From an uncultured Pseudomonadales bacterium (GTDB lineage: Bacteria; Pseudomonadota; Gammaproteobacteria; Pseudomonadales; Oleiphilaceae): DNA of 24,399 nt. Both the position numbers and the translations under genes were made by a program. Location of the stretch: assembly GCA_964467875.1 (NCBI GenBank), contig CAYXVO010000002.1:1-24399 (forward strand), given 5' to 3'. Below are positions 10,136 to 23,684 of the stretch, piece after piece; position 1 is the first letter of the stretch; every line of letters starts with the position of its first letter. The notes below the pieces were generated by a model. That model did no database searches. It saw nothing but the letters and a program-made list of their open reading frames with translations, and was not told the origin of the DNA.

Positions 10136-12580
10136 TCAAATCCGGCGTTCGGGCGTGGCCGGCTCAATCGCGCGGCCTTTGTCCTGGGCCTCAAACTCAT
10201 CCACCTGAATCAGACGGCGCAGGGCTTCATTGGCTTCGCGAATGGCTTCCGCCTCTGGCGGCGTAATCAGTTCACGGGCCAGGCCTTCCTCAATCGCTTC
10301 ATGATAATTGGTTTCGTTGATGCGACGGTTGAGTGCCTTGCCCAGCTTGCTCTCCAGCGGTTCCACCTCCAGGATCCGGCGAAAGTTATACTCGACCTGG
10401 CCCAATGAGTCAGCGGGATCATCGGAGATGAACGCGCCAGCCGTCAGCCGGTCACGGGAGGCGTTCGGTGCCAGGAGAATGTTCGCGGCAGACCGCCCCT
10501 GGCTATCCTTGGGCCCCTGTTGGCGTCGACCCCGGGGCAGAACGATCCAGTGCAGAATGTGGCCGAGCAGGGTTGATGGATAATTTCGCAGTAGCTCGCT
10601 CATGCGGGTCTCGATGGTACGCAGGGAGTCCTCCAGCGCCCACTGGACCAGCGGCAGATCGTTGCGCGGCCGGCCATCGTCCTCGTAGCGCTTGAGGGTT
10701 GCCGAGGCCAGGTACAGATGGCTGAACATGTCCGCCAGGCGGCCCGACAGTTTTTCCCGTTGCTTGAGCTGGCCACCCAGGCTGAGCATGGTGACGTCGG
10801 CGAGAAACGCAAAGGCGGCGCTGGCCCAGGCCAGACGCTGGTAATACCGCGCCGTCGGCCCCTCATGGGGAACCTTCACCAAGCGGGCGCCCGTCAGCCC
10901 CAGAAAGAGCGCACGGGCCGCGTTGGAGAGGGAAAGCTGGACATGGCTGCTGAGCAGGCGGTCGAACGTTTGCAGGCCCTGTTCGGCGTTTGGATCCGCC
11001 GCCGCTTCCATTTCCCGCAGCACATAGGGATGGGAGCGGATCGCACCCTGGCCGAAGATCATCAGGCTGCGGGTCAGAATGTTGGCGCCTTCCACCGTAA
11101 TGCTAATGGGAATGGCCTCATAGGTACGCCCGAGGAAATTGAGCGGACCCAGGCAGATGCCGCGTCCGCCGAGAATATCCATGCCATCGTTGACCACACC
11201 CCGCATGCTCTCCGTGAGGTTGTACTTGAGGATGCCGGACACCACGCTGGGCTTCTCTCCCAAATCCAGGGCACCGGCCGTCATGATGCGGGCGGCATTC
11301 ATGCGGTAGGTGGTACCGGCCATCCGCCCCAGAACTTCCTCTACCCCTTCGAACTTGCCCACTGGAACCCGGAACTGCTTGCGCAGGCGAGCATAGGCGC
11401 CCACCGTGCGGCAGGCAAACTTGGCGGCGCCGGTACTCAAGGCGGGCAGGGAAATGGAGCGGCCGGCCGCCAGGGAGTTCATCAGCATCATCCAGCCCTG
11501 GCCAATTCGGTCCTGGCCGCCGATGACCCAGGATAAGGGGATGAAGACATCCTTGCCGCGGGTCGGCCCGTTCTGGAATGCGGAGCTTAACGGATAATGG
11601 CGGCGGCCGATCTCGACGCCGGGAGTGCTGGTGGGAATCAGGGCACAGGTGATGCCCAGGTCTTCCCGGTCGCCCAGCAAGTGATCCGGGTCGCGCGCCT
11701 GGAACGCCAGGCCCAGCACCGTGGCGATGGGCGCCAGGGTGATATAGCGCTTCTCCCAGGTGAGGCGAAAGCCAAGCGTCCGTTCGCCCTCGAATTCTTC
11801 TTCGCACACAATGCCGTAGTCGGGAATGGCGCCCGCATCGGAGCCGGCGTAGGGGCTGGTCAGGGCAAAACAGGGAATTTCCTCACCACTGGCAAGGCGC
11901 GGCAGGTAATGAGTCTTTTGCTCCGATGTGCCGTAATGCAGCAACAGCTCACCAGGGCCGAGGGAGTTTGGCACCATCACCGTGACGCCGGCCGATATGC
12001 TGCGGGTGGAGATTTTCATCACCGCTTCACTGTGAGCCAAAGCGGAGAAGCCGAGGCCACCGTATTCCTCGGGGATGATCATGCCGAAGAACTTTTCCCG
12101 CTTGATGAAATCCCAGACGTTGGCGGGCAGGTCGTTGAGCTCCTGGGTAATCCGCCAGTCATCCAGCATGCCGCATAATTGCTCGACCGGGCCATCAAGA
12201 AAGGCCTGCTCCTCAGGGGTCAGGCGGGGCAGTTGGTAGTGGCTCAGGGTATGCCAGTTGGGATGACCGGTGAAGAGTTCACCGTCCCACCACACGCTGC
12301 CGGCGTCGATCGCCTCGCGCTCGGTATCGGAAATGGGCGGGAGCACCTTTTTAAACCAGCGAAACAAGGGTTCCACCACTAGGCTTTGACGAATGCTGTC
12401 GACATTCAGAATGACCGCCACCACGATGAAGAGGAGCCAGAGCAGGATCAGCGAGTCATCGTCGATCAACTCGCCGGTGACCAGCAGCACAAAGCCCGCC
12501 AGCGTCCACTGCCGCAAGGACGCGCGAAAATACGCCAGCGCCCCGAGGGTGGCAATCACAATTAAAAACCAGATCAGCAT
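10136..12580 (-). CDS. fadE: Acyl-CoA dehydrogenase FadE (long, membrane-anchored type)
   Basis: 814 aa from ATG 12580 (RBS AAGGAG). N-terminal TM region, then LPPISDTEREAIDAG..WW.GELF.G.P, VMVPNSLGPGELL.HYG, PCFALTSPYAGSDA, GRSISLP, GGRGICLGP, ITVEGANILTR. Confidence 0.97.
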   Translation of the reverse strand: MLIWFLIVIATLGALAYFRASLRQWTLAGFVLLVTGELIDDDSLILLWLLFIVVAVILNVDSIRQSLVVEPLFRWFKKVLPPISDTEREAIDAGSVWWDGELFTGHPNWHTLSHYQLPRLTPEEQAFLDGPVEQLCGMLDDWRITQELNDLPANVWDFIKREKFFGMIIPEEYGGLGFSALAHSEAVMKISTRSISAGVTVMVPNSLGPGELLLHYGTSEQKTHYLPRLASGEEIPCFALTSPYAGSDAGAIPDYGIVCEEEFEGERTLGFRLTWEKRYITLAPIATVLGLAFQARDPDHLLGDREDLGITCALIPTSTPGVEIGRRHYPLSSAFQNGPTRGKDVFIPLSWVIGGQDRIGQGWMMLMNSLAAGRSISLPALSTGAAKFACRTVGAYARLRKQFRVPVGKFEGVEEVLGRMAGTTYRMNAARIMTAGALDLGEKPSVVSGILKYNLTESMRGVVNDGMDILGGRGICLGPLNFLGRTYEAIPISITVEGANILTRSLMIFGQGAIRSHPYVLREMEAAADPNAEQGLQTFDRLLSSHVQLSLSNAARALFLGLTGARLVKVPHEGPTARYYQRLAWASAAFAFLADVTMLSLGGQLKQREKLSGRLADMFSHLYLASATLKRYEDDGRPRNDLPLVQWALEDSLRTIETRMSELLRNYPSTLLGHILHWIVLPRGRRQQGPKDSQGRSAANILLAPNASRDRLTAGAFISDDPADSLGQVEYNFRRILEVEPLESKLGKALNRRINETNYHEAIEEGLARELITPPEAEAIREANEALRRLIQVDEFEAQDKGRAIEPATPERRI

Positions 12581-12862
12581 GGTGCAAACTCCTTGTGCGC
12601 CTGTTGGGCAAGTCCATCCGCGACTTGCTTGAGAGAGGGGTGCGACGTGCCGCCGGAGCTCGCAATCGAGTGGGTTGTTCAGTCCATCGGGGCTGGTCGT
12701 ATGCTCAACAATATGCAATGTCACCTTAAAAACCAACCCTTTCGGCACGAATGCCAAGGCTTGGACCCTCCATGTACAGCACTGCTACACTGCCAATTGC
12801 GCGCGCGGAATCCTAAGGTGTATTGGTCGCCTGGTCCGTGCCGGGAGCATCTATTGGGAAGA

Positions 12863-12962: not shown

Positions 12963-14114
12963 ATGACCTGTGAATTTGTCGAGCGCATATCGCACATCGG
13001 TGCTGACGCCTGGAATGGTCTGACAGGCACGGCTTATCCCTTCTTGCGCTATGAATACCTGCACGCGCTGGAGGCTTCCCGTTCCGTCGGCGGGCGCACC
13101 GGCTGGCGACCCTGCCATCTGATCGTCCGTGACGATCAGGGCTTGGCGGGCCTGCTGCCCCTGTATGAGAAGAGCCACTCCTGGGGAGAATATGTGTTCG
13201 ACTGGAGTTGGGCGGAAGCCTACGAGCGCAGTGGACTGACTTATTACCCCAAGTTGCTGAGTGCGATCCCCTTCACCCCCTGTGAGGGATCACGCCTGGT
13301 GTTGCGTGGTGATCGCAAACCGGCGTTAGCCGGCCAGATGCTGAATGCGGTGCAGACGCGGGTTCGGGAGCAGGGACTGTCATCCTGGCATCTGCTGTTT
13401 CCCGATCCGGAATGCCAGGCCCTGGTCGAGGGCCTACCGCTGGCGAAGCGTCTGGGCGTGCAGTTTCATTGGCATAATCAGGGTTGGGCCAGCTTTGAGC
13501 AGTTTCTGGAGTCGTTTGTCTCGCGCAAGCGCAAGAACGTGCGTAAGGAGCGCACCAGCGTACAGGCGCAGGGCATTGGATTTCGCTGGTTTGAAGGCGT
13601 GGAAGTAACGGAGGCGGTACTCAATCAGTTTTACCTGTTCTACCAGGCCACCTATCTCAAGCATGGCCAGCACGGCTACCTCACCCAGGACTTCTTTGCA
13701 CGCTTGCTGGCCACCATGCCGGAGCAGGTGGTGCTGGTGCAGGCGGAGCTCAGTGGAAAACCGGTCGCCGCCGCCTGGTTTCTGAAGAGCGAGACAACAC
13801 TCTATGGCCGCTACTGGGGTTGCCAGGACGACTATAACCATCTGCACTTCGAAACCTGTTACTACCAGGGCATCGAATATTGCCTGGCGCAGGGGCTTAT
13901 GAACTTCGACGCCGGCGCCCAGGGCGAGCATAAGCTGTTACGAGGCTTTTTACCCCGCTTGACCTGTTCCTACCACTGGCTGGCCGACGCCCGCTTTGGC
14001 CCGGCCATTGCCGATTTTTTGCGTCGCGAGCGCTCGCATGTGGAAGCCTATCTGGCGGAGGCCGAGACCTTACTGCCTTATCGCCGCGACCAGGGCACCG
14101 ATGCCGGCCCGTAA
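12963..14114 (+). CDS. GNAT/FemAB-like protein of the DUF482 family
   Basis: YPFLRYEYL.ALE.S.SV, SHSWGEYVFDWSWA.AY, YYPKLLSAIPFTP, LGVQFHW.N, LYGRYWG, HFETCYYQGIEYC, AGAQGEHKL.RGF.P. Confidence 0.92.
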   Translation: MTCEFVERISHIGADAWNGLTGTAYPFLRYEYLHALEASRSVGGRTGWRPCHLIVRDDQGLAGLLPLYEKSHSWGEYVFDWSWAEAYERSGLTYYPKLLSAIPFTPCEGSRLVLRGDRKPALAGQMLNAVQTRVREQGLSSWHLLFPDPECQALVEGLPLAKRLGVQFHWHNQGWASFEQFLESFVSRKRKNVRKERTSVQAQGIGFRWFEGVEVTEAVLNQFYLFYQATYLKHGQHGYLTQDFFARLLATMPEQVVLVQAELSGKPVAAAWFLKSETTLYGRYWGCQDDYNHLHFETCYYQGIEYCLAQGLMNFDAGAQGEHKLLRGFLPRLTCSYHWLADARFGPAIADFLRRERSHVEAYLAEAETLLPYRRDQGTDAGP

Positions 14115-14198: not shown

Positions 14199-14831
14199 AT
14201 GAAATATCAGATGATTCCGGTTACCGCCTTCGCCCAGAATTGCAGCCTGCTGTGGTGCGAGAAAACCCGCCAGGCCGCGGTGGTCGATCCCGGTGGCGAT
14301 CTGGACAAGGTGTTGGCGGTGATCGAGCGCGAGCAGTTGCAGCTGACCAAGATCCTGCTCACCCACGCCCACATCGATCACGCCGGCGCGGTTGCCGAAC
14401 TGGTGGCCAGATGCGCGCTGCCCATCGAGGGGCCGCAGTTGGCCGACAAGTTCTGGATTGATCTGCTGCCGCAGCAAAGTGCCATGTTCGGGTTTCCCGC
14501 CGCCCAGAGCTTCACGCCAGATCGCTGGCTGGAGCAGGGCGATCAGGTGCAGGTGGGCGAGGAAACCCTGGAGGTCTTGCACTGCCCGGGGCACACGCCG
14601 GGACATCTGGTGTTCTTTCACGCCCCCAGTCGCCTGGCGATTGTTGGTGATGTGCTGTTCGCCGGCTCCATCGGGCGCACCGATTTTCCCCAGGGCAACC
14701 ATGCCGACCTGATCCGTTCCATCAAGGAGCGCCTGTGGCCACTGGGGGACGAGGTGGCGTTCATTCCCGGGCATGGCCCCATGTCGACCTTTGGCCAGGA
14801 GCGCCGCACCAATCCGTTTGTAGCGGATTGA
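14199..14831 (+). CDS. gloC: MBL-fold hydroxyacylglutathione hydrolase GloC (YcbL)
   Basis: IPVTAFAQNCSLLWCE, VVDPGGD, THAHIDH (HxHxDH), HCPGHTPGH, GDVLFAGSIGRTDFP, PGHGPMSTFG.ER..NPF. Confidence 0.93.
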   Translation: MKYQMIPVTAFAQNCSLLWCEKTRQAAVVDPGGDLDKVLAVIEREQLQLTKILLTHAHIDHAGAVAELVARCALPIEGPQLADKFWIDLLPQQSAMFGFPAAQSFTPDRWLEQGDQVQVGEETLEVLHCPGHTPGHLVFFHAPSRLAIVGDVLFAGSIGRTDFPQGNHADLIRSIKERLWPLGDEVAFIPGHGPMSTFGQERRTNPFVAD

Positions 14832-14840
14832 ACGTCATCT

Positions 14841-16100
14841 TCATGTAGGAACGCACTCCGGCTCGACCAGCAGGATCTGGTCGGCCCGGACCGGGTCCGA
14901 TGCATAGAGTGTCAGCACATCCGGCGTTTCCAGTGGTTGGGTCAAACCAACGCACCAGTGATACAGCCGCGCCATATATGCCTCGGCCTCAGGCTGCCAG
15001 TCCGGATCGGTGGCGACACGGTAGGCAAGACGGTTCAGACTGGCGGACGACAGCCCCCAGAGGGTCATGGGACGGCTGACGAAGAGTAGACGATCGAGGA
15101 AGTAGTCGAGCGTTGTATCCCGCTGGAACAGGGCAAAGGAGCCCGCGTCAAAGAGATAGGCCCGGCCCTCATGCTCATGGCGGGCGGCCCGGTCAAAATG
15201 GCCGGTGGGAAAGTTGCGGTTGCGATAGCGCTCGCTGTCATAGCCATCCCGGGCGCCGGTGAACCAGGCCAGGTTTTCCTGGCGTTGGCGAAAACCGTGG
15301 GCCAAGTCGTTGAGATTGCGCTTGACCTCGATGGCTGCCAAGACCCGCACCGCGCCGCCATTTGGCGGTAGGCCGACCACCAGTTGATCGAACTCCACCG
15401 GGCCGCTCCCCAGGCGCACCCCATGTAGAACCTGAACCTCCGTAAAGCGCTCAAAATCTGGTGTTATGGCTTGTAACCGGGGCAGGATGCGCTCGCCAAT
15501 CAGGGCCTGTACCTGCTTTTCGAATTGCTCGCCGCTTCGCCCCGATGCCTGTCCCTGGCTGCGGAGCAGATCGTCAAGCCGTTGCGCCTCCCGATCCAGG
15601 CTCAGATGTGCGCGTTCGGCCTGAACCTGCTGCTCCAGATCCAGCAGCTTCTGCTGCATCGGATTGGCCAGCCGTAGTTGGTTGTAGTCGGTCAGCATCG
15701 TCTGGTGCTGCGAGTGGAAGCGGGCCAGCTTTTGTTCGAGCTGCAGCCTGCGTTCGCTGCTGGCGGCGGCGATCGCCTGTGACAAGCCAGTCTGGGCCTT
15801 GAGGTTGTCCGCCAGTTGCCGCGCCAGCATGGCGGCCTGAGCAAAGGCCGGCGTCGAGGCGAGCTGACGCCGGCTCTCCCGCTCGTCCCGCTCCAATTGC
15901 CGTAGTCGGGGGTGGGCTCGGTAGATCTCGCGGATCTCAACCCGCTGGCGGAAAATCGGATTCTTTCGCCAATGGACCAGGTGCGCCTCAAGCCACCTGC
16001 CAAAACTGGGCGGATCGAGGCGGCGGAAGTCCTGGTTGTAATCCCGGAGTAGCAAGGCCAGGGTGCTGCGACCGGATTCGATGCGGATACTGTGTGTCAC
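14841..16100 (-). CDS. Hypothetical protein: N-terminal coiled coil + PD-(D/E)XK nuclease-like domain
   Basis: 419-codon ORF (GTG start). Q/E/R/L-rich helical N-half, then GEQFEKQV (E194), VEFDQLVV (D238) and IEVK (E258/K260). The ORF is solid; the nuclease call is motif-based inference. Confidence 0.7.
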   Translation of the reverse strand: MTHSIRIESGRSTLALLLRDYNQDFRRLDPPSFGRWLEAHLVHWRKNPIFRQRVEIREIYRAHPRLRQLERDERESRRQLASTPAFAQAAMLARQLADNLKAQTGLSQAIAAASSERRLQLEQKLARFHSQHQTMLTDYNQLRLANPMQQKLLDLEQQVQAERAHLSLDREAQRLDDLLRSQGQASGRSGEQFEKQVQALIGERILPRLQAITPDFERFTEVQVLHGVRLGSGPVEFDQLVVGLPPNGGAVRVLAAIEVKRNLNDLAHGFRQRQENLAWFTGARDGYDSERYRNRNFPTGHFDRAARHEHEGRAYLFDAGSFALFQRDTTLDYFLDRLLFVSRPMTLWGLSSASLNRLAYRVATDPDWQPEAEAYMARLYHWCVGLTQPLETPDVLTLYASDPVRADQILLVEPECVPT

Positions 16101-16204
16101 GTGACAAATATTAATCTATTCCTTACCAGGCAACTAAGGTATTCTGGCCGGTGCCGAGGGTTAGGCAGATTTGATGAAATTATTCGCAAGGATGGCGAGA
16201 GGCA

Positions 16205-18379
16205 ATGTCTAAATTCACAATTTTGCAGGCTTGCGTGCTGGGGATGGCCTGGAGTCACGCGGCGGTAGCCGCCGTGCCAGCCATGGCGCTGGACGGCGCC
16301 CCTGGCGAGACGGCCTGGCATGCCCTGGTCTGGGTGCTGCTGGCGGTTGGTTCGGTGGTGGCCAGCGCCCTGTTTATATTGGGTTACTTCAATCGGCGCC
16401 TGCGCCGGGCCGTGGATCAAAAGACCCAGCAATTGGTGTTGGCCAACGATGCCCTGTTCCGCCACACCACGAATCTGGTGGAAAAGGAACGGGCCCTGTT
16501 CCTGCTGAATCAGGAGCTGGAGCAACGGGTTGCAGAGCGGACCCAGGCCTTGACCGATATCAATGCCACGCTGCAGCGTGAAATCGAGGATCGGGCACGG
16601 CGTGAACTGTCGCTGCGGCTGCTCTCGAACGCAGTGGAAAGCTGTCGCAGCGGGATCATTGTCGCCGACGTGACCGGCGTTGTGGTCTACGTCAATGCCG
16701 CCTTTCTTGACCTCGTGGGGTTGACTCGCGACCAGGTCTGCCACAAGCCGCTCTCCGCCCTGCAGCCACGTCTGGAATTGCCGGATCTGGCGCTCTCCTC
16801 TTCCGAATCCAATACTCCTAGCCTGTTACGCAGCGAGCTGGAATGCTTTGGTGCCAACAATAGTCGTGCCTGGGTTCAGGTTTCCGTGTCGGGGATTCAG
16901 GATGGTCAGGGCCAGCGGACCCATTATGTGATCGCCTGTGAGGACATCACCCTGCTCAAGCAGAATCGGGACGAGATGGAACGGCTGGCGTTCTATGACA
17001 GCCTGACCGGCCTGGAGAATCGCCTGCTGTTCAAGCTGCGGTTGGAAAAGGCAGTGGCCAACGCACAGCGGGAAAAGGTTCGCACCGCCTTGATGTTCAT
17101 CGACATCGACCACTTCAAGCAGATCAATGACACCTTCGGCCATGACGCCGGTGATGAGGTGTTGCAAGCGGTGGCCGCGCGCATTCGCCAGAGCGTTCGC
17201 AATAACGACACGGTGGCCCGGGTCAGCGGTGACGAGTTCACGGTGCTACTGGGCGGGGTACATTCCAACGAAGACGTGCGCAGGGTGGCGCAGGGTATTC
17301 TCAAGACGTTGAGCCAGCCGGTGAAACTGGCCGGCAACGAGTATTTCGTGTCTGCCAGCATCGGCATTTCCGTGACCCCGGGCGACGGCACGGGCGTTGA
17401 CGAACTCATGAAGAACGCCGACCTGGCCATGTACGAAGCCAAGCGCAATGGGCGTAACAATTTCCAGTTTTTCTCCAAGCGACTTAATGAAGAAGCCAAG
17501 CGCAATCTGGATCTGGAGCAGGAGCTGCGGGCGGCGCTGGCGGACCGTCATTTCTTTATCGCCTACCAGCCGCGCATCTGCCTCAAGACCATGCGGCTGG
17601 CGGGGGTGGAAGCCCTGGTGCGGTGGCGTCACATCGAGCTTGGCACCCTCTATCCGGAATACTTTCTGGGATTTGCCGAAGACTCCGGCTTTATCGTTGA
17701 GCTGGGCAAGTGGGTGTTGTCGGAATGTAGTCTGTCGGCGCGGATATTGCGGGATGCCGGTTTCAGCGAGGCCCGCCTGTCGGTGAACGTATCGGCCCGC
17801 CAGTTGCGCGACCGAAGCTTGCTGGAGGACGTTGCCTATCTCTTTGGGCACGGTGACAACGTCATCAGCAATGTGGAACTGGAAATCACGGAAGCCTCGC
17901 TGATTGAAAACCACAGCGACAGCCTGCAGACCATTGAGGAGCTGCGGAGCATGGGCTTTACCCTGTCCATCGATGATTTTGGCACCGGCTACTCCGCACT
18001 GAACCATCTCAAGCGCTTGCCGGTGGATTTCGTCAAGATCGACCGCTCCCAGGTGGAAGGTCTCCCCACCGATGCAAGCAGCGCGGAGACGGTGCGGGCG
18101 GTCATCGGCATGGCCCATGGATTGAATCAGCGCGTGGTGGCGGAGGGCGTGGAGAGCCCGGCGCAGGTCGAGTTTCTCAAAGACCTCGGCTGCGATTATG
18201 CGCAGGGCTACTTCTTCGGCCAGGCGATGCCGCTACGGGAGTTGATGCGGCGCTATGAACCGCTCAGAGGAACTGGCAACGCCCAGCCGGTTGCGGGTTT
18301 GCCGGCTGAGAGTTTGCCGGCTGAGAGTTCGCCGGGCGTAGTGAGGGAGCAGCCCTGTGCGTCCGAACAGAGAGGTTAA
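16205..18379 (+). CDS. Membrane-anchored PAS-GGDEF-EAL protein (probable c-di-GMP phosphodiesterase)
   Basis: GGDEF domain: YDSLTGL.NR, DIDHFKQINDTFGHDAGD, RNND, ARVSGDEF. EAL domain: YQP, VEALVRW, LSVNVS, ELEITE, IDDFGTGYS, VKIDRS, VVAEGVE, DYAQGY. Confidence 0.95.
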   Translation: MSKFTILQACVLGMAWSHAAVAAVPAMALDGAPGETAWHALVWVLLAVGSVVASALFILGYFNRRLRRAVDQKTQQLVLANDALFRHTTNLVEKERALFLLNQELEQRVAERTQALTDINATLQREIEDRARRELSLRLLSNAVESCRSGIIVADVTGVVVYVNAAFLDLVGLTRDQVCHKPLSALQPRLELPDLALSSSESNTPSLLRSELECFGANNSRAWVQVSVSGIQDGQGQRTHYVIACEDITLLKQNRDEMERLAFYDSLTGLENRLLFKLRLEKAVANAQREKVRTALMFIDIDHFKQINDTFGHDAGDEVLQAVAARIRQSVRNNDTVARVSGDEFTVLLGGVHSNEDVRRVAQGILKTLSQPVKLAGNEYFVSASIGISVTPGDGTGVDELMKNADLAMYEAKRNGRNNFQFFSKRLNEEAKRNLDLEQELRAALADRHFFIAYQPRICLKTMRLAGVEALVRWRHIELGTLYPEYFLGFAEDSGFIVELGKWVLSECSLSARILRDAGFSEARLSVNVSARQLRDRSLLEDVAYLFGHGDNVISNVELEITEASLIENHSDSLQTIEELRSMGFTLSIDDFGTGYSALNHLKRLPVDFVKIDRSQVEGLPTDASSAETVRAVIGMAHGLNQRVVAEGVESPAQVEFLKDLGCDYAQGYFFGQAMPLRELMRRYEPLRGTGNAQPVAGLPAESLPAESSPGVVREQPCASEQRG
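18297..18335 (+). repeat. 15-bp in-frame tandem repeat (LPAES x2 plus partial)
   Basis: GTTTGCCGGCTGAGA at 18297 and 18312, then GTTCGCCGG. Confidence 0.9.
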
Positions 18380-18391
18380 GGCGGTTAAGGC
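18374..18391. repeat. Perfect 9-bp tandem duplication GGTTAAGGC x2 carrying the stops of both convergent genes
   Basis: GGTTAAGGC at 18374-18382 and 18383-18391. The + strand TAA is at 18377-18379; the - strand stop is at 18385-18387. Confidence 0.9.
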
Positions 18392-20085
18392 CGAGCCAAC
18401 AGTTCGTGCAGAATGGCTGGCCGCTTGCGTTCGATGAGCTGCTCCAGGTTACGGGCCACGCGCAGCAGCAAATGTTCTTCCCAGGGCCGACCAATCAGTT
18501 GCAGGCCAATGGGCAGTCCCTCCGGCGTGTAACCCACCGGTAGTGTCAGTGCCGGGTAGCCGGTGAGGTTGGCACTGGTGGCAAACCGCATCAGCTCGGT
18601 CAGCGCGCCCAGGTTGGATTCACCCGCCGGCAGGGCCTTCTCATTGATGCGCGGTGCCGCGATGCCGGTGGTGGGCGTCACGATGATGTCGACCTTCTGA
18701 AACGCCTGTTCGAACTGATCAATGGCGTAGGTCCTGATCTGCTGTGCCTTGATGTAGTCACGGCTGCTGAAGGCATGGGCGAGTGCCAGGTTGAGCCGGG
18801 TTTCCAGGCCAAAGCGGTGGCGTTCGCGACGGTAAGGGCCGTCGAGCGCGGCCAGCATCTCGCTGGCAATGGTCACCGTATGGGCCAGGCGTTGGGCGTC
18901 GAGCTGGCCGATCTCGATGTGGTGCATGGTGGCACCGCGGCTCTTGAGCCGCTCCAGCGCCAACTGGCAGGTCTGCACCAGATCGCGGCTGGCGTGGTTG
19001 AACCAGGGCAGGTACACCCCGATGCGGACATCATCGAGTTTGGACTTGAGGTAATCCTGCAGGTGAACGGCCGGCTGCTCCAGAGACCAGGGGTCGTGGC
19101 TATCCGGCCCCGCGATCAGGCTGTAGGCCAGGGCCACGTCGTCGACGCTGGCGCCAATCGGACCCACGTGGGCCACGCTCCAGCACAGGGGCGTGGCACC
19201 GAATTCGCTGACCCGACTCCAGGTAGGCTTCAGGCCCACCACGCCACAGAGCGCGGCGGGAATGCGCACCGAACCACCGCCGTCGGCACCTAGCGCGACC
19301 GGGCAGAGACCGGCGGCGACCGCCGCGGCCGAGCCGCTGGAGGATCCTCCGGTGTGGTGGGCGGGGTTATAGGGGTTGCGACAGACGCCGTAATGGGCGT
19401 TGGCGCCGGTCACCCCAAGACCGACCTCCTGCATGTTGGTCTTGCCGATCAACAGGGCGCCCGCCGCCCGCAAGCGAGCCACGGCGGTGGCATCCTGATT
19501 GGCCGAGGCGTCCTGCCCCAGCACCTGCGTGCCAACGGTGGTGGCATAGGGCACCAGGTCCAGCTCATCCTTGATCGCCACCGGCACGCCGTCGAGCACG
19601 CTGAGCGGGCGACCGGCCTGGATCCGGGCCAGGGATTCCCGGGCCTGGGCCAGAATGTTCTGCTCATTGAAGTTGATCACCGCGTTCAGCGGCTTGTCAC
19701 CGCTGTTGGATTGCCGGATGGCGGCGATTATTTTTTCCGCAATCGCGACCGGGGTGGTTTCTCCGGCGCGATAGGCGCGGGCATAATCAAAGGCGGTTGG
19801 TAACCGGAAGCCGGCTGCGTCTGGCACCTGATAATGATCATGCTGCAGCACCGCCAGCGAGGCACGCGCCTGCTCTGGATTGGGCGCGCGACCTGGCGGA
19901 TGCTTGGGCTGATGGGTGGGAGATTCCTGAATGTCTAGCGCCCGCAGGCGATGGAGGCCGCCTTCCTTGAGCATGGGCGATTCCAGCAGGCGTCGCGAAT
20001 AGCCGTTTTCCAACAGGCTGACCAAGGTCTTGAGTGGTTTTCCCGACAGTTGAGGGACTTTCAGGGACTGCAGGTCATACGGCAT
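18385..20085 (-). CDS. Amidase-signature family enzyme, fatty acid amide hydrolase (plant FAAH)-like
   Basis: Ser-cisSer-Lys signature: [21 protein letters not shown]...[28 protein letters not shown]. Start ATG 20085 with RBS AAGGA. Confidence 0.93.
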
Positions 20086-20116
20086 CAATGTGTCCTTCGG
20101 GCGCACGGTGTACAAT

Positions 20117-20184
20117 CAGTCGCAAGCGGTACCAGTCGCAAGCTGTACATGAAGCAATCGCAAGCTGTATATGAACCAGTCGCA
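20117..20184 (+). repeat. Tandem repeat array, core CA(G/A)TCGCAAGC(G/T)GTA, in units of 16, 22 and 22 bp plus a partial unit
   Basis: CAGTCGCAAGCGGTAC (20117), CAGTCGCAAGCTGTACATGAAG (20133), CAATCGCAAGCTGTATATGAAC (20155), CAGTCGCA (20177). Confidence 0.9.
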
Positions 20185-20442
20185 GTTCGTGCTTGCGCGA
20201 GTCGCGACGGCTGCTTTAACGATACGCTGTCACTGACGTTTGCGGTAAACGGCTCGCGCTAAACCTCCAGCCAGGAGACGAGCTGACAGGATCGCGGATG
20301 CCATAGCCGCCGGAGCGGTCTTTTGTGAGTGCAAGGATAGTTCGCTCCTGGCTGATTCTCCAGGGGATTCTCTGGCGAGCGGGTGTTGAACGACGCGAGA
20401 CGTATCGCATCCAACGCAAGGTTTTTACGTGGGATATTATTG

Positions 20443-23100
20443 ATGTCGGTATCTGTTCCAGCGCGCATGCTGTTATTGGTGGTGTTCGGTGTGGCCTTGG
20501 CCGCCTGTGGTGGCGATAAGGATTCTGACCGCAAGGTGTTCAAGCAGCCCTTGGCCACCTTGAGTGGCGTGATCGGCATTCCGGCAGGGACTCTGGTGGA
20601 TCTTGATGTCGCCACGGATGACGATGGAACCAGTCTGAAGCGCAACAACGACTTCTCCAGCGCCCAGCGTATTCTCAATCCCGCCGTGATCGGTGGTTAT
20701 GTCAGTGACCTGCCTGGCCTATATGTGGTGCAAAACCAGGAGGGGCAGCCGAGTAACCGGAATTATCCGCAAGATCTGGCGGATGCGTTCAAGGTCAGGC
20801 TGTTTGCTGGCCAGACCCTGCAGCTTGAAGTGCATGATGCGGACGACGATCTGGTGTCAGCAAGCGGCGAGCCCAACCAGGATGGCCGGCGGCCCCGGCT
20901 CGCCCTGCAATTATTCCTTGAAGATGCCCCACAAACGGAGGTGGCCAGCGTCGCCGTGGGCGGGGCGCCCGAGGAGGTCGTCAGCGTGGGCCGGTTGACG
21001 GTGCCCGAGACCGGCGACTACTTCATCAGGGTCATGCCCCTGCCCAACCGGTCCGCCGACCAGGGTGGACCTGCTAATTATGTCTTGCGCCTGGAACAGA
21101 ACGTGGCGCCAAGCACAGCGTTGTCGGCGGTGGACGATTTTGTACCGGGTGAGGTCCTGGTGGCATGGGATCAGGAGCCCCCGACCAGCACCATGCGCAG
21201 CCAGAGCGCGCCGCTGACACTGGTGCAGGATGCAGGCCCGGTTCGCCGCATGCGGATCAATCATCCGGCGTTTACCAACACGGCTCGCAGCGGGACGGGT
21301 GGCGCCAGTGCCGCGCAGCTCCTTGAGCAAAAGCGAATCACGGTGGAGACGATTCGCGAGCTTCGCCGCCAGCCGGGCATCAAGTTCGCCGAACCCAACT
21401 ATATTCGCCGTGCGCTCGCCGTCCCCTCCGATCCCTATTACGCCCGCCAATGGCATCACGCCTTGATCAACCTGCCGTCTGCCTGGAACAGCAGTCAGGG
21501 TGAGGGCGTGATCGTGGCGGTGATCGATTCAGGCGTGCGTTTCGATCATCCGGACCTGGCCGGCCAGTTCGTGAGTGGCTATGACTTTGTCAGTGACCCG
21601 GACATCGCGCGGGATGGCGACGGCTATGACAGCAATCCGACCGACCCCGGCGATGAGGACGGCGGCAGCAGTTTTCATGGCACCCATGTGGCCGGTGTCA
21701 TCGCGGCACTGGCGGGCAATGGTCAGGGTGGGGTTGGTACGGCCCATGGCGCAAAGGTCATGCCGTTGCGAGTCCTTGGGCGTAAGGGCGAGGGGTTGGA
21801 TTTCGATGTGGCGCAGGCCGTACTTTATGCCGCCGGATTGGACAACGCCTCTGGGCGGCGGCCTCAGCGTCGGGCCGATGTCATCAACCTGAGCCTGGGC
21901 TCGCCCAGCGCTTCACAGACCCTCCAGGACGCGGTGGACCTGGCGAGCCGGGCGGGCGTCATCGTGGTGGCGGCGGCCGGCAATGAAAACTCCCCCCAGG
22001 TGGTTTTTCCGGCCGGGTACGCGTCGGTCTTCGCGGTCAGTGCGGTGGGGCCCGATAAAATCAAGGCACCTTATTCCAATCATGGCAGTAGCATCGATCT
22101 GGCCGCGCCAGGCGGTAATTTTAGGTTGGACATGGACAACGATGGCTATGCTGACGGCATTCTCAGCACCTGGGCCGATGACAGCTACGCCACGCCCCGG
22201 CCCGGATATGCCTGGATGGAGGGCACCTCCATGGCGGCGCCCCAGGTAGCCGGCGTGGCGGCTCTCATGAAGGCGGCGCGGCCCACCCTGACTGTGGCGG
22301 AGTTTCGCCAGTACCTGAACGAAGGCAAGCTGACGCAGCGGCTGGATCCGTCGAGCGATTACGGCAAGGGCTTGATCGATGCCTCCAAGGCCGTGTCGAC
22401 GGCGATCACCGGCGAGCCCAAGGCTATTCTGACAGCATTTCCCGGTTCTCTGGTGTTTGAAGGGCTGAAGGATAATGCGGAGTTGACGTTGGATAATGGT
22501 GGCAGCAACACCTTGCCGCTGACGTTGCAGGGGGCACCCGTGGTTGAGGACGGCGGATTGGGTTGGCTGAGCGTCATGCCGGTGGACGTCAGCGCCGAAG
22601 GGCTGGGACGCTACCTCGTCAGCATTGACCGCTCGGACTTTGTTCCGGGCGTGAGCTATTCCGGGCGGATTCTCGCCCAGTCCAGTGCCGGACCGGTGGA
22701 AATACCGGTTGTGGCGCGGGAGCCTGACCCGGAACGGGTTGCCAATGCCGGCACCCAATTTCTGCTGTTGCTGGATGCGGAGACCTTCCAGCCGGTGCGC
22801 TCGCTGGTGCTGGATCCGCCCCAGAATGGGTTCTATAACTTCACCCTGGAAAATGTGCCGCACGGCCGCTATACGCTGATGGTATCGTCGGACCTGGATA
22901 ACGATCTGCAGCTCTGTGACGGTGGTGAAGCCTGCGGCCTGTATCCGGTCGGCCAACAGCAGGTTTTCCGGGTGCCGGAGGATGTGGGTCAACCGCTGCT
23001 GTTTAATACCGGTTTCCACTCCGGTCTGGGCAGCCGTGCTTTGTCCGTGGATGCCGAGCCTGCCCCCGCCCCCGCAAGATTTCAGAGGATTCAACCATGA
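20443..23100 (+). CDS. Lipoprotein subtilisin-like (S8) serine protease with accessory domains
   Basis: Lipobox LAAC (Cys22 from ATG 20443). Catalytic triad VAVIDSG (D codon 21526), HGTHVAG (H codon 21676) and GTSMAAP (S codon 22228); oxyanion AAAGN; acidic loop DGDGYDSNPTDPGD; propeptide-like FVPGEVLV...AEPNY. Confidence 0.95.
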   Translation: MSVSVPARMLLLVVFGVALAACGGDKDSDRKVFKQPLATLSGVIGIPAGTLVDLDVATDDDGTSLKRNNDFSSAQRILNPAVIGGYVSDLPGLYVVQNQEGQPSNRNYPQDLADAFKVRLFAGQTLQLEVHDADDDLVSASGEPNQDGRRPRLALQLFLEDAPQTEVASVAVGGAPEEVVSVGRLTVPETGDYFIRVMPLPNRSADQGGPANYVLRLEQNVAPSTALSAVDDFVPGEVLVAWDQEPPTSTMRSQSAPLTLVQDAGPVRRMRINHPAFTNTARSGTGGASAAQLLEQKRITVETIRELRRQPGIKFAEPNYIRRALAVPSDPYYARQWHHALINLPSAWNSSQGEGVIVAVIDSGVRFDHPDLAGQFVSGYDFVSDPDIARDGDGYDSNPTDPGDEDGGSSFHGTHVAGVIAALAGNGQGGVGTAHGAKVMPLRVLGRKGEGLDFDVAQAVLYAAGLDNASGRRPQRRADVINLSLGSPSASQTLQDAVDLASRAGVIVVAAAGNENSPQVVFPAGYASVFAVSAVGPDKIKAPYSNHGSSIDLAAPGGNFRLDMDNDGYADGILSTWADDSYATPRPGYAWMEGTSMAAPQVAGVAALMKAARPTLTVAEFRQYLNEGKLTQRLDPSSDYGKGLIDASKAVSTAITGEPKAILTAFPGSLVFEGLKDNAELTLDNGGSNTLPLTLQGAPVVEDGGLGWLSVMPVDVSAEGLGRYLVSIDRSDFVPGVSYSGRILAQSSAGPVEIPVVAREPDPERVANAGTQFLLLLDAETFQPVRSLVLDPPQNGFYNFTLENVPHGRYTLMVSSDLDNDLQLCDGGEACGLYPVGQQQVFRVPEDVGQPLLFNTGFHSGLGSRALSVDAEPAPAPARFQRIQP

Positions 23101-23684
23101 TGCGAGCCTCTAATCGCCGCACAGCGCTTCGGGTCCGGGTCCCTGCACAGAAAGGGATCGGGCTGTTTATCCTCGGCAGCATGCTGCTGGGCTGTCAGGC
23201 CGATGAACTGGTGTTCCCGACCCAGAGCCAGCCCCAGGGGCTGGTGGGCGAGCAACTGTTTGTGGGGCAGCGCTGCGCCATGAAGCAGGCGGGCATTCAG
23301 TGGCTGGATTCCGAGGCGGACTGGCGGCGCCATCAGAGCGCCGCACCGCGCCAGGTTATTGTGCTGGACGACACCGTGCCGTCTCCGACGGACAAGCCGG
23401 CCATCGATTTCACCACCCACGCAGTCGTTATCGTGGGGCTGGGACAGAAGCCCAGCGGCGGCTATGCCGTCATGCTCGGTGCCGAAGGCGTGCAGCGCGC
23501 CGGCGACAGGCTGCTGGTTCATGTGCGGGTGGAGGAGCCGGCAGCGGACGCCTTCGTCACCCAAGCCCTGACCGCGCCCTGCGTCGCCGTAAAGGTGCCG
23601 CGCGTAAAAGTGCAGACCCTGCGTGCCCTGGATCAAAACGGACAGGTCATCGCGGAGGCCGCTCGGGCGGCAGGCCAAGGTTGA
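23097..23684 (+). CDS. PrcB-family protease-complex lipoprotein
   Basis: Lipobox LLGC. C-terminal IDFTTHAVVIVGLGQKPSGGYAV...VTQALTAPCVAVKVP matches the PrcB C-terminal pattern as recalled. ATGA overlap with the S8 stop, and RBS AGAGGA. Confidence 0.85.
   Translation: MMRASNRRTALRVRVPAQKGIGLFILGSMLLGCQADELVFPTQSQPQGLVGEQLFVGQRCAMKQAGIQWLDSEADWRRHQSAAPRQVIVLDDTVPSPTDKPAIDFTTHAVVIVGLGQKPSGGYAVMLGAEGVQRAGDRLLVHVRVEEPAADAFVTQALTAPCVAVKVPRVKVQTLRALDQNGQVIAEAARAAGQG

What the first reader, a model, noticed from the sequence alone, without database searches (positions are those of the whole stretch)
18385..20085. Bacterial amidase apparently colinear with plant-type fatty acid amide hydrolase
Seen: outside the generic amidase signature it has an N-terminal extension ([19 protein letters not shown]...), [37 protein letters not shown]...AL..GESN...LTELMRF...ANL.GYPA, and a C-terminus [10 protein letters not shown]. 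From memory these parallel Arabidopsis FAAH (KAPHLTG..FKLFV.LLE; RDYAYAYRS..TTP; SASDYIAAQ; DVIVTPTTGMTAP; LMRF..AANL.GFPA; KKPAIFYDIL). Established: plant FAAH hydrolyses N-acylethanolamines and has been reported to act on acyl-homoserine lactones. Inference: this may be a bacterial N-acyl amide hydrolase for lipid scavenging or quorum quenching, with possible inter-kingdom history.
Basis: partly seen in the sequence, partly recalled or inferred. Interest (0 to 1): 0.65.

Follow-up and report, generated by a model that had tools for sequence, protein, structure and literature searches.

The report
Bacterial plant-type fatty acid amide hydrolase
This bacterial gene encodes an enzyme that matches plant fatty acid amide hydrolase from end to end, so it probably cleaves fatty-acyl amide lipids or signals; it belongs to a widespread bacterial branch of that family that, in the papers searched, nobody has characterised.

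Summary
Window 18385-20085 (-) encodes a 566-aa amidase-signature protein.

**Match to plant FAAH.**
- Its best solved relative is Arabidopsis FAAH (6dhv): E 2.5e-123, 415 bits, aligned over residues 3-563. The best GatA scores 207 bits.
- An AlphaFold model superposes on 6dhv at TM 0.93 with 39% identity. GatA reaches about 0.73.
- The triad K172/S248/S272, the N-terminal helical cap and most acyl-pocket positions are conserved.

**Distribution.**
- It is one of many ~560-aa bacterial proteins labelled only "amidase", found in Oleiphilaceae/Hahellaceae, many Chloroflexota and about eight other phyla.
- These form one well-supported clade, separate from plant, algal, fungal, oomycete and sea-urchin members.
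- A tree with bacteria and eukaryotes as sister clades fits best (AU p 0.74). A recent inter-kingdom transfer is therefore not indicated.

**Function and context.**
- The most likely function is hydrolysis of long-chain N-acyl amides. The natural substrate is unknown.
- There is no conserved operon, and no EutB or LuxI was found in this 81%-complete MAG.
- No paper on a bacterial member was found.
- An earlier scan note (e1-5198974) reported the same kind of gene in another genome.

**Verdict.** A solid new member of a known kind, of moderate interest.

The parts
18385..20085 (-). Complete CDS of the 566-aa FAAH-type amidase (P0001), stop codon 18385-18387
   Evidence: End-to-end match to AtFAAH 6dhv. 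AF2 model with pLDDT 89.5 and TM 0.93 to 6dhv.
19939..20079 (-). N-terminal family-specific module, residues 3-49. It carries the YDLxSxKxPxLxG motif and three helices (15-26, 28-42, 44-49). It corresponds to the alpha1/alpha2 membrane-binding cap of AtFAAH.
   Evidence: Aligned to AtFAAH 20-66. Helices are present in the model. The motif is shared by bacterial, archaeal and eukaryotic members and absent from outgroup amidases.
18463..19725 (-). Amidase-signature catalytic domain, residues 121-541
   Evidence: PF01425, E 3.3e-105.
19570..19572 (-). Catalytic Lys172 (= AtFAAH K205)
   Evidence: Codon checked. Invariant in 34 bacterial homologues and in all 53 tree rows. AtFAAH numbering from PMC7033180.
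19342..19344 (-). cis-Ser248 of the GGSSSGS signature (= AtFAAH S281)
19270..19272 (-). Nucleophile Ser272 (= AtFAAH S305); Arg274 (= R307) lies two codons downstream
   Evidence: 8eww is the S305A mutant of AtFAAH.
20093..20098 (-). Shine-Dalgarno-like GAAGGA, 7 nt before the ATG
   Evidence: Read directly from the sequence.
20114..20184 (-). Four direct repeats with core TGCGAYTG (minus strand), spaced 16-22 nt, 30-100 nt upstream of the start. Candidate regulator-binding array; function unknown.
   Evidence: Only the proximal copy is conserved in the 94%-identical relative L006, and none in more distant relatives.

Best explanation
The gene encodes a cytoplasmic, possibly membrane-peripheral, serine amidase of the plant-type (AtFAAH-type) fatty acid amide hydrolase family.

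Shown:
- It shares the whole architecture of Arabidopsis FAAH: the N-terminal helical cap, the amidase-signature core with the Lys172 / cis-Ser248 / Ser272 triad, and the C-terminal tail.
- It keeps the family-specific pocket residues.

Inferred:
- A fatty-acyl amide enters an open hydrophobic acyl channel lined by L8, V10, M38, L44, L223, I406, L435, A436, F439, L492 and M499.
- Ser272 attacks the amide carbonyl.
- A free fatty acid and an amine head group are released. The head group could be ethanolamine, ammonia, homoserine lactone or an amino acid.
- The fatty acid can then feed beta-oxidation.

The gene is a stand-alone transcription unit with its own upstream region. It belongs to a monophyletic bacterial clade that has spread patchily across phyla. 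The natural substrate is not known.
For: Sequence:
- 6dhv/8eww AtFAAH score E 2.5e-123 and 415 bits, aligned over query 3-563. This is twice the score of any other solved amidase.
- No NCBIfam model passes its cut-off; AtzE, GatA and IAM hydrolase are all well below.

Structure:
- AF2 model has pLDDT 89.5 and pTM 0.93.
- Foldseek gives TM 0.93 and 39% identity over 579 columns to 6dhv, against 0.72-0.74 for GatA and AtzE-like proteins.

Catalysis:
- K172, S248, S272 and R274 are invariant.

Pocket:
- Of the 14 hydrophobic/Gly substrate-pocket residues listed for AtFAAH in PMC7033180, 13 are hydrophobic or Gly here (mapping).
- H402, I406 and M499 are nearly invariant across the FAAH-type clade and differ in outgroups.
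- The three acyl-channel positions that are Tyr in short-chain-preferring legume group II FAAH (PMC10169808) are T403/A436/L492 here. The mapping was validated on the legume protein P0176, which reads Y/Y/Y.

Phylogeny:
- The protein falls in a clade with all bacterial ~560-aa homologues, inside the FAAH-type family and away from its own genome's other amidases.

Other:
- A green-algal member, Lobosphaera P0191, is named 'lipid body protein' by its depositors.
Against: - No enzyme of the bacterial clade has been assayed, as far as the searchable literature shows.
- At 39% identity, substrate class can shift within the amidase-signature superfamily.
- The N-terminal cap of this protein and its closest relatives is the least hydrophobic of the set: 0.38 hydrophobic fraction against about 0.5. 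Membrane association is therefore uncertain.
- Three of six polar pocket residues of AtFAAH are replaced: N59>G, T258>V, T535>L.
- No lipid-metabolism partner is conserved next to the gene across phyla.
- No ethanolamine ammonia-lyase was found in the MAG. It is 81% complete, so this is weak.
Confidence: 0.65

Rival explanations
1. It is specifically a quorum-quenching amidase. It cleaves N-acyl-homoserine lactones made by neighbouring bacteria inside the cell, giving fatty acid plus homoserine lactone.
For: - AtFAAH has been crystallised with N-(3-oxododecanoyl)-L-homoserine lactone (8ey1) and hydrolyses long-chain AHLs (PMC10169808).
- The head-group channel here has Ala267/Trp302. This is the nonpolar/Trp state of legume group II FAAH, which prefers microbial acylamides (PMC10169808).
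- The producer has no LuxI hit, so any AHL would be foreign.
Against: - Trp302 is also the commonest state in algal and protist members, so it is not a marker of AHL use.
- No LuxR-solo or AHL-related gene is linked.
- Many carriers are Chloroflexota, where AHL signalling is not an obvious theme.
- There is no experimental datum.
Confidence: 0.15
2. It keeps the FAAH fold but acts on a non-lipid or short amide, such as an aromatic or xenobiotic amide, a peptide amide or a metabolic intermediate. The N-terminal helices would serve dimerisation or substrate gating rather than membrane access.
For: - The amidase-signature superfamily is very promiscuous in substrate; the PDB neighbours include aryl acylamidase, urethanase and biuret hydrolase.
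- The cap is less hydrophobic than in other members.
- The neighbourhood gives no lipid link.
Against: - The acyl-channel lining is hydrophobic and open, with no Tyr closure.
- Family-specific pocket residues H402/I406/M499 are conserved with the lipid-amide enzymes.
- The whole cap module is retained across bacteria at high conservation; Y3, D4, L5 and P11 are invariant.
Confidence: 0.17
3. It is a GatA-type glutamine amidotransferase subunit or another housekeeping amidase, and only looks like FAAH.
For: Some source annotations call homologues 'Asp-tRNA(Asn)/Glu-tRNA(Gln) amidotransferase A subunit family amidase'.
Against: - It scores 227 bits against the GatA cut-off of 481, while the genuine GatA sits on contig C253 at 603 bits.
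- The GatA structures cover only the core, at TM about 0.73.
- No gatB or gatC neighbours are present.
Confidence: 0.01

Closest known systems
Arabidopsis thaliana fatty acid amide hydrolase, AtFAAH (PDB 6dhv, 6dii, 8eww, 8ey1), plant FAAH group I
   Same: - Full-length colinearity at 39% identity and TM 0.93.
- Same Lys-Ser-Ser triad, offset 33 residues.
- Same N-terminal two/three-helix cap motif.
- Same C-terminal tail: [10 protein letters not shown] against KKPAIFYDIL.
- Open acyl channel without Tyr.
   Different: - About 40 residues shorter: a shorter leader before the YDL motif and a shorter linker at residues 50-95.
- Less hydrophobic cap.
- Trp302 where AtFAAH has Gly335, and Ala436 where AtFAAH has Phe476.
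- Bacterial and cytoplasmic, with no known endogenous NAE signalling.
Legume group II FAAH (MtFAAH2a type; here Stylosanthes P0176)
   Same: Nonpolar residue plus Trp in the cytosolic (head-group) access channel: A267/W302 against Val/Trp.
   Different: Group II closes the acyl channel with three Tyr. This protein has Thr/Ala/Leu at those positions.
Algal and protist FAAH-type proteins (Chlorokybus P0131, Lapot gusevi P0130, Lobosphaera 'lipid body protein' P0191)
   Same: The six discriminating pocket positions read A/W/A/T/A/L here and C/W/A/T/A/L in Lapot. These are the nearest eukaryotic pocket states.
   Different: The eukaryotic proteins are about 600-620 aa with a longer N-terminal leader. 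They fall outside the bacterial clade.
Mammalian FAAH-1 (rat 1mt5, human-rat chimeras)
   Same: Same superfamily, triad and chemistry. Same class of substrates, by inference.
   Different: - Only the signature core aligns (residues 157-322, about 92 bits).
- FAAH-1 has an N-terminal TM helix, and its membrane cap is made by alpha18-19 rather than by the N-terminus (PMC7033180).
Bacterial AHL acylases PvdQ / QuiP / AiiD (Ntn-hydrolases)
   Same: They would catalyse the same bond cleavage if this enzyme takes AHLs.
   Different: Unrelated fold. They are periplasmic or secreted and autoproteolytically matured (PMC5474475). This protein has no signal peptide and is an amidase-signature enzyme.

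Membership tests
Amidase signature (AS) superfamily, PF01425 | Signature GGSS(S/G)GS and the Ser-cisSer-Lys triad | tested here: met
   PF01425 at E 3.3e-105. GGSSSGS at residues 246-252. K172/S248/S272 are invariant.
Plant-type (AtFAAH-type) FAAH family | Full-length sequence and fold match to AtFAAH that is clearly better than to any other AS enzyme | tested here: met
   415 bits over residues 3-563 against 207 bits for GatA. TM 0.93 against 0.74 or less.
Plant-type (AtFAAH-type) FAAH family | N-terminal alpha1/alpha2 cap module preceding the AS core | tested here: met
   Motif and helices are present and aligned. They are absent from outgroup amidases. Hydrophobic fraction is lower here, 0.38.
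Plant-type (AtFAAH-type) FAAH family | Hydrophobic substrate-binding pocket residues (list in PMC7033180) | tested here: met
   13 of 14 hydrophobic/Gly positions are conservatively kept, and 3 of 6 polar ones are kept (mapping; conservation).
Plant-type (AtFAAH-type) FAAH family | Phylogenetic placement inside the family, away from GatA and other AS clades | tested here: met
   inside the FAAH-type group, in a bacterial clade with SH-aLRT 100. The outgroups are separate.
Plant-type (AtFAAH-type) FAAH family | Hydrolysis of N-acylethanolamines and other fatty acyl amides; inhibition by MAFP/PMSF | not testable with these tools
   Needs an enzyme assay.
Plant-type (AtFAAH-type) FAAH family | Homodimer with membrane access channel | not tested
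   Only a monomer model was made.
GatA (TIGR00132) | Score above the curated cut-off; partner GatB/GatC | tested here: not met
   227 bits against a cut-off of 481.1. The true GatA lies on contig C253.
AtzE / indoleacetamide hydrolase / allophanate hydrolase equivalogs (NCBIfam) | Score above the curated cut-off | tested here: not met
   All are 100-240 bits below their cut-offs.

The most novel reading that the evidence does not exclude
The ~560-aa bacterial clade is a widespread, so far unassayed class of intracellular fatty-acyl amide hydrolases. It occurs in Oleiphilaceae/Hahellaceae, very many Chloroflexota, Gemmatimonadota, Planctomycetota, Myxococcota, Leptospiraceae, SAR324 and others. 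Its natural substrates would be signalling amides: AHLs from neighbours, or NAEs and alkamides from plants and algae. On this reading bacteria would have an amidase-signature route to quorum or host-signal quenching, alongside the Ntn acylases and lactonases. The bacterial clade would also be the sister, and possibly the source, of the pan-eukaryotic plant-type FAAH.
Probability: 0.2. Interest if true: 0.6.

Novelty: new member of a known kind. Interest (0 to 1): 0.42.

Why it matters
The plant FAAH literature treats this enzyme as eukaryotic; one abstract calls it 'widely conserved in eukaryotes' (PMC10169808).

This work shows a complete version, with the N-terminal cap, in bacteria of at least ten phyla and in one marine archaeon. 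The bacterial members form one clade.

That provides three things:
- Easily expressed bacterial models of the plant-type fold.
- A set of candidate enzymes for cleaving N-acylethanolamines, primary fatty amides or acyl-homoserine lactones.
- An outgroup for asking how the eukaryotic family arose.

For this genome the practical gain is a better annotation than 'amidase'.

Tried and rejected
- **Operon context as a guide to substrate.** I called ORFs in 80 related loci and clustered the neighbours. No partner is conserved across phyla.
  - Oleiphilaceae/Hahellaceae share S8 protease (divergent) - amidase - MBL hydrolase / GGDEF-EAL.
  - Anaerolineales share UPRTase - PEMT/ICMT-like methyltransferase - Zn-ADH - amidase - DUF1801 - methyltransferase.
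  - The apparent cross-phylum 'cluster 2' was a chain of unrelated signal-transduction proteins (HK, REC-HD-GYP, GGDEF-EAL) linked by shared domains. I do not count it as evidence.
- **Ethanolamine use (EutB) and own AHL synthesis (LuxI) in the MAG.** Neither was found. The MAG is 81% complete and the LuxI control rang nowhere, so this is uninformative.
- **Recent horizontal transfer from plants.** Not supported.
- **GatA identity.** Rejected.
- **Literature on a bacterial member.** Six of the seven full-text searches looked for one and found none (one search failed on a format error; only sought the structure paper). The AtFAAH structure paper (PMC6509493) is not held. Its definitions were taken second-hand from PMC7033180 and PMC10169808.
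- **The look-up of encoding contigs.** Metagenome neighbourhoods of the protein-database hits could not be read, and genome-contig loci were used instead.
- **Dictyostelium FAAH and human FAAH-2.** They could not be put in the tree because no tool returned their sequences.

Full report
**Observation**

Window 18385-20085 on the minus strand is an open frame of 566 codons plus stop.
- The ATG at 20085 is preceded by GAAGGA 7 nt upstream.
- Pfam finds only the generic Amidase domain, at residues 121-541.
- No NCBIfam model reaches its cut-off.

**Comparison with plant FAAH**

A phmmer search of all PDB chains puts Arabidopsis FAAH (6dhv, 8eww) first.
- AtFAAH scores E 2.5e-123 and 415 bits, in one alignment from query residue 3 to 563 (chain 20-604).
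- The next hits are GatA at 207 bits, starting only at residue ~102.
- Mammalian FAAH-1 aligns only over the signature core, at about 92 bits.

An AlphaFold2 model was built on 34 bacterial homologues (A1). It has mean pLDDT 89.5 and pTM 0.93, with three N-terminal helices at 15-26, 28-42 and 44-49. Foldseek against the PDB gives 6dhv_A at TM 0.93, 39% identity and 579 columns. GatA, AtzE-partner and peptide amidase reach 0.68-0.74. The colinearity is therefore real and specific.

**Active site and pocket**

- AtFAAH K205/S281/S305 (PMC7033180) map to K172/S248/S272, at a constant offset of 33. With R274 they are invariant in all sequences examined.
- I used the pocket list in PMC7033180 and the alignment. 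Of the 14 hydrophobic/Gly positions, 13 stay hydrophobic or Gly: L8, V10, M38, L44, G222, L223, G224, I406, L435, A436, F439, L492 and M499. The exception is V442>T403.
- Of six polar positions, three are kept (H402, N432, T496) and three become apolar or Gly (G42, V225, L495).
- H402, I406 and M499 are almost invariant throughout the FAAH-type family and differ in outgroup amidases.
- PMC10169808 describes positions that separate long-chain-preferring group I from short/aromatic-preferring group II legume FAAH. The legume representative P0176 reads Val/Trp and Tyr/Tyr/Tyr, as that paper describes, which validates my column mapping.
- The window protein reads Ala267/Trp302 in the head-group channel and Thr403/Ala436/Leu492 in the acyl channel. 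The acyl channel is thus not closed by tyrosines.
- The combination is nearly the same as in the protist Lapot gusevi and close to the streptophyte alga Chlorokybus.

**N-terminal module**

- The motif Y-D-L-x-S-x-K-x-P-x-L-x-G-x-x-L-K-x-f-x-x-L-l-E, followed by two more helices, is shared by bacterial, archaeal and eukaryotic members. It is missing from the outgroups.
- In AtFAAH this region is the membrane-binding cap (PMC7033180, PMC10169808).
- In this protein and its closest relatives it is the least hydrophobic of the set, with hydrophobic fraction 0.38-0.46 against about 0.5-0.56. Membrane binding here is an open question.
- I see no signal peptide or transmembrane segment by eye in the sequence. 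No predictor was run.

**Who else has it**

- The 5.8-billion-protein search returned more than 120 full-length homologues (99% coverage, ~560 aa) at 51-94% identity. They are named only 'amidase' or 'GatA family amidase', and come from Alkalimarinus, Hahella, Mangrovitalea, Marinobacteraceae, Anaerolineae and Calditrichaceae.
The best 80 are all full length. They come from Hahellaceae/Oleiphilaceae and many Chloroflexota (51 of the 75 loci in which a complete amidase ORF was called). They also come from Leptospiraceae, Gemmatimonadota, Planctomycetota, Acidobacteriota, Myxococcota, SAR324, Thermodesulfobacteriota, Verrucomicrobiota and others.
- In the window's own taxonomic family, 15 of 24 genomes have it. 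In 16 other families of the order, none has it.
- In an even sample of the phylum, 0 of 293 good genomes has a match at E 1e-100 or better.
- The distribution is therefore patchy, and phyla are intermixed inside the bacterial clade. That points to transfer among bacteria.

**Relation to eukaryotes**

- The exhaustive HMMER search of 1.84 billion representatives also returned many ~600-aa proteins.
- Look-ups identify members from Chlorokybus, a legume (Stylosanthes), the chlorophytes Lobosphaera (called 'lipid body protein' by its depositors), Auxenochlorella and Bryopsis. Others come from the sea urchin Diadema, the chytrid Powellomyces, the oomycete Pythium and the protist Lapot gusevi. One comes from a Poseidoniales archaeon.
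- In an IQ-TREE (LG+C20+F+G4) tree of 53 rows, rooted with the genome's own paralogous amidases, all labelled bacteria plus the ~560-aa metagenomic representatives form one clade (SH-aLRT 100). The eukaryotic lineages sit in an unresolved basal polytomy.
- Forcing all non-bacterial FAAH-type rows into one clade gives a tree 12.4 log-likelihood units better than the free search found, with p-AU 0.74.
- Two sister clades, bacterial and eukaryotic, is therefore the best current picture. The data neither need nor indicate a recent inter-kingdom transfer, and the direction of any ancient one is unresolved.

**Context in the window**

- The amidase is monocistronic. It is convergent with a PAS-GGDEF-EAL gene (16205-18379, +) and divergent from an S8 subtilase-PrcB pair (20383-23684, +).
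- The S8 / amidase divergent arrangement recurs in relatives of the same family. Outside that family the neighbours change completely.
- FadD-like and FadE-like genes lie in the window but 6-17 kb away.
- The genuine GatA is on another contig.
- EutB and LuxI were not found in the MAG, which is 81% complete.

**Interpretation**

- Membership in the plant-type FAAH family is met on every feature that can be tested in silico.
- The most probable activity is hydrolysis of medium- to long-chain N-acyl amides to fatty acid plus amine (confidence about 0.65).
- Which amide matters in nature is not decided by anything found here. Candidates are NAEs or primary amides from plant and algal detritus in compost, AHLs from neighbours, or bacterial N-acyl amino-acid lipids.
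- No publication on a bacterial member was found in the held library.
- An earlier first-reader note of this scan (e1-5198974) reported the same kind of gene in another genome. It has had no follow-up.

**Verdict**

The functional inference is reasonable but unproven. The inter-kingdom idea reduces to a deep sister relationship. This is a new member, in a bacterial clade with no characterised member that I could find, of a known enzyme kind. Interest is moderate.

Noticed in passing
window 20114-20184: Four direct repeats with core TGCGAYTG (read on the minus strand), 16-22 nt apart, lie 30-100 nt upstream of the amidase start in the amidase / S8-protease divergent region. Only the proximal copy (TTGCGACTGATTGTACAC) is kept in the 94%-identical relative. 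More distant relatives lack the motif.
   Followed up: partly
L015-L020 and window 14199-23100: Within Oleiphilaceae/Hahellaceae the order S8 subtilase (divergent) - FAAH-type amidase - MBL-fold hydrolase - large GGDEF/EAL or hybrid kinase is conserved. The S8 protein has diverged to 25-38% identity while the amidase stays at 57-61%.
   Followed up: partly
L022, L023, L024, L031, L034, L035, L044, L047, L049, L051, L077: Anaerolineales and relatives share a different co-directional string around the amidase: UPRTase, a PEMT/ICMT-like membrane methyltransferase (weak Pfam hit), a Zn-alcohol dehydrogenase, the amidase, DUF1801, a small SAM methyltransferase and an unknown 144-aa protein.
   Followed up: partly
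L029, L037, L039, L064, L082: In several unrelated phyla the gene next to the amidase is a signal-transduction protein, sometimes 3-56 bp away: a 7TM-PAS histidine kinase, a REC-HATPase or a REC-HD-GYP. These families are abundant, so this may be chance.
   Followed up: partly
L007 (G003:C27:31123-32814): The 68%-identical homologue in a same-genus genome carries one in-frame TAG. It may be a pseudogene or an assembly error.
   Followed up: no
P0188: A 548-aa FAAH-type protein with the same N-terminal motif is encoded by a Poseidoniales (marine group II) archaeon MAG and 10 near-identical metagenome proteins.
   Followed up: no
L022 vs L084: The amidases of an Anaerolineales MAG and a Thermodesulfobacteriota MAG are almost identical in the tree, with end branches of 0.11 and 0.18. 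This could be very recent transfer or a binning error.
   Followed up: no
window 12963-14114: A FemAB_like/GNAT (PF04339) gene sits divergently from a bacterial-type FadE acyl-CoA dehydrogenase (10136-12757). It was not examined here.
   Followed up: no
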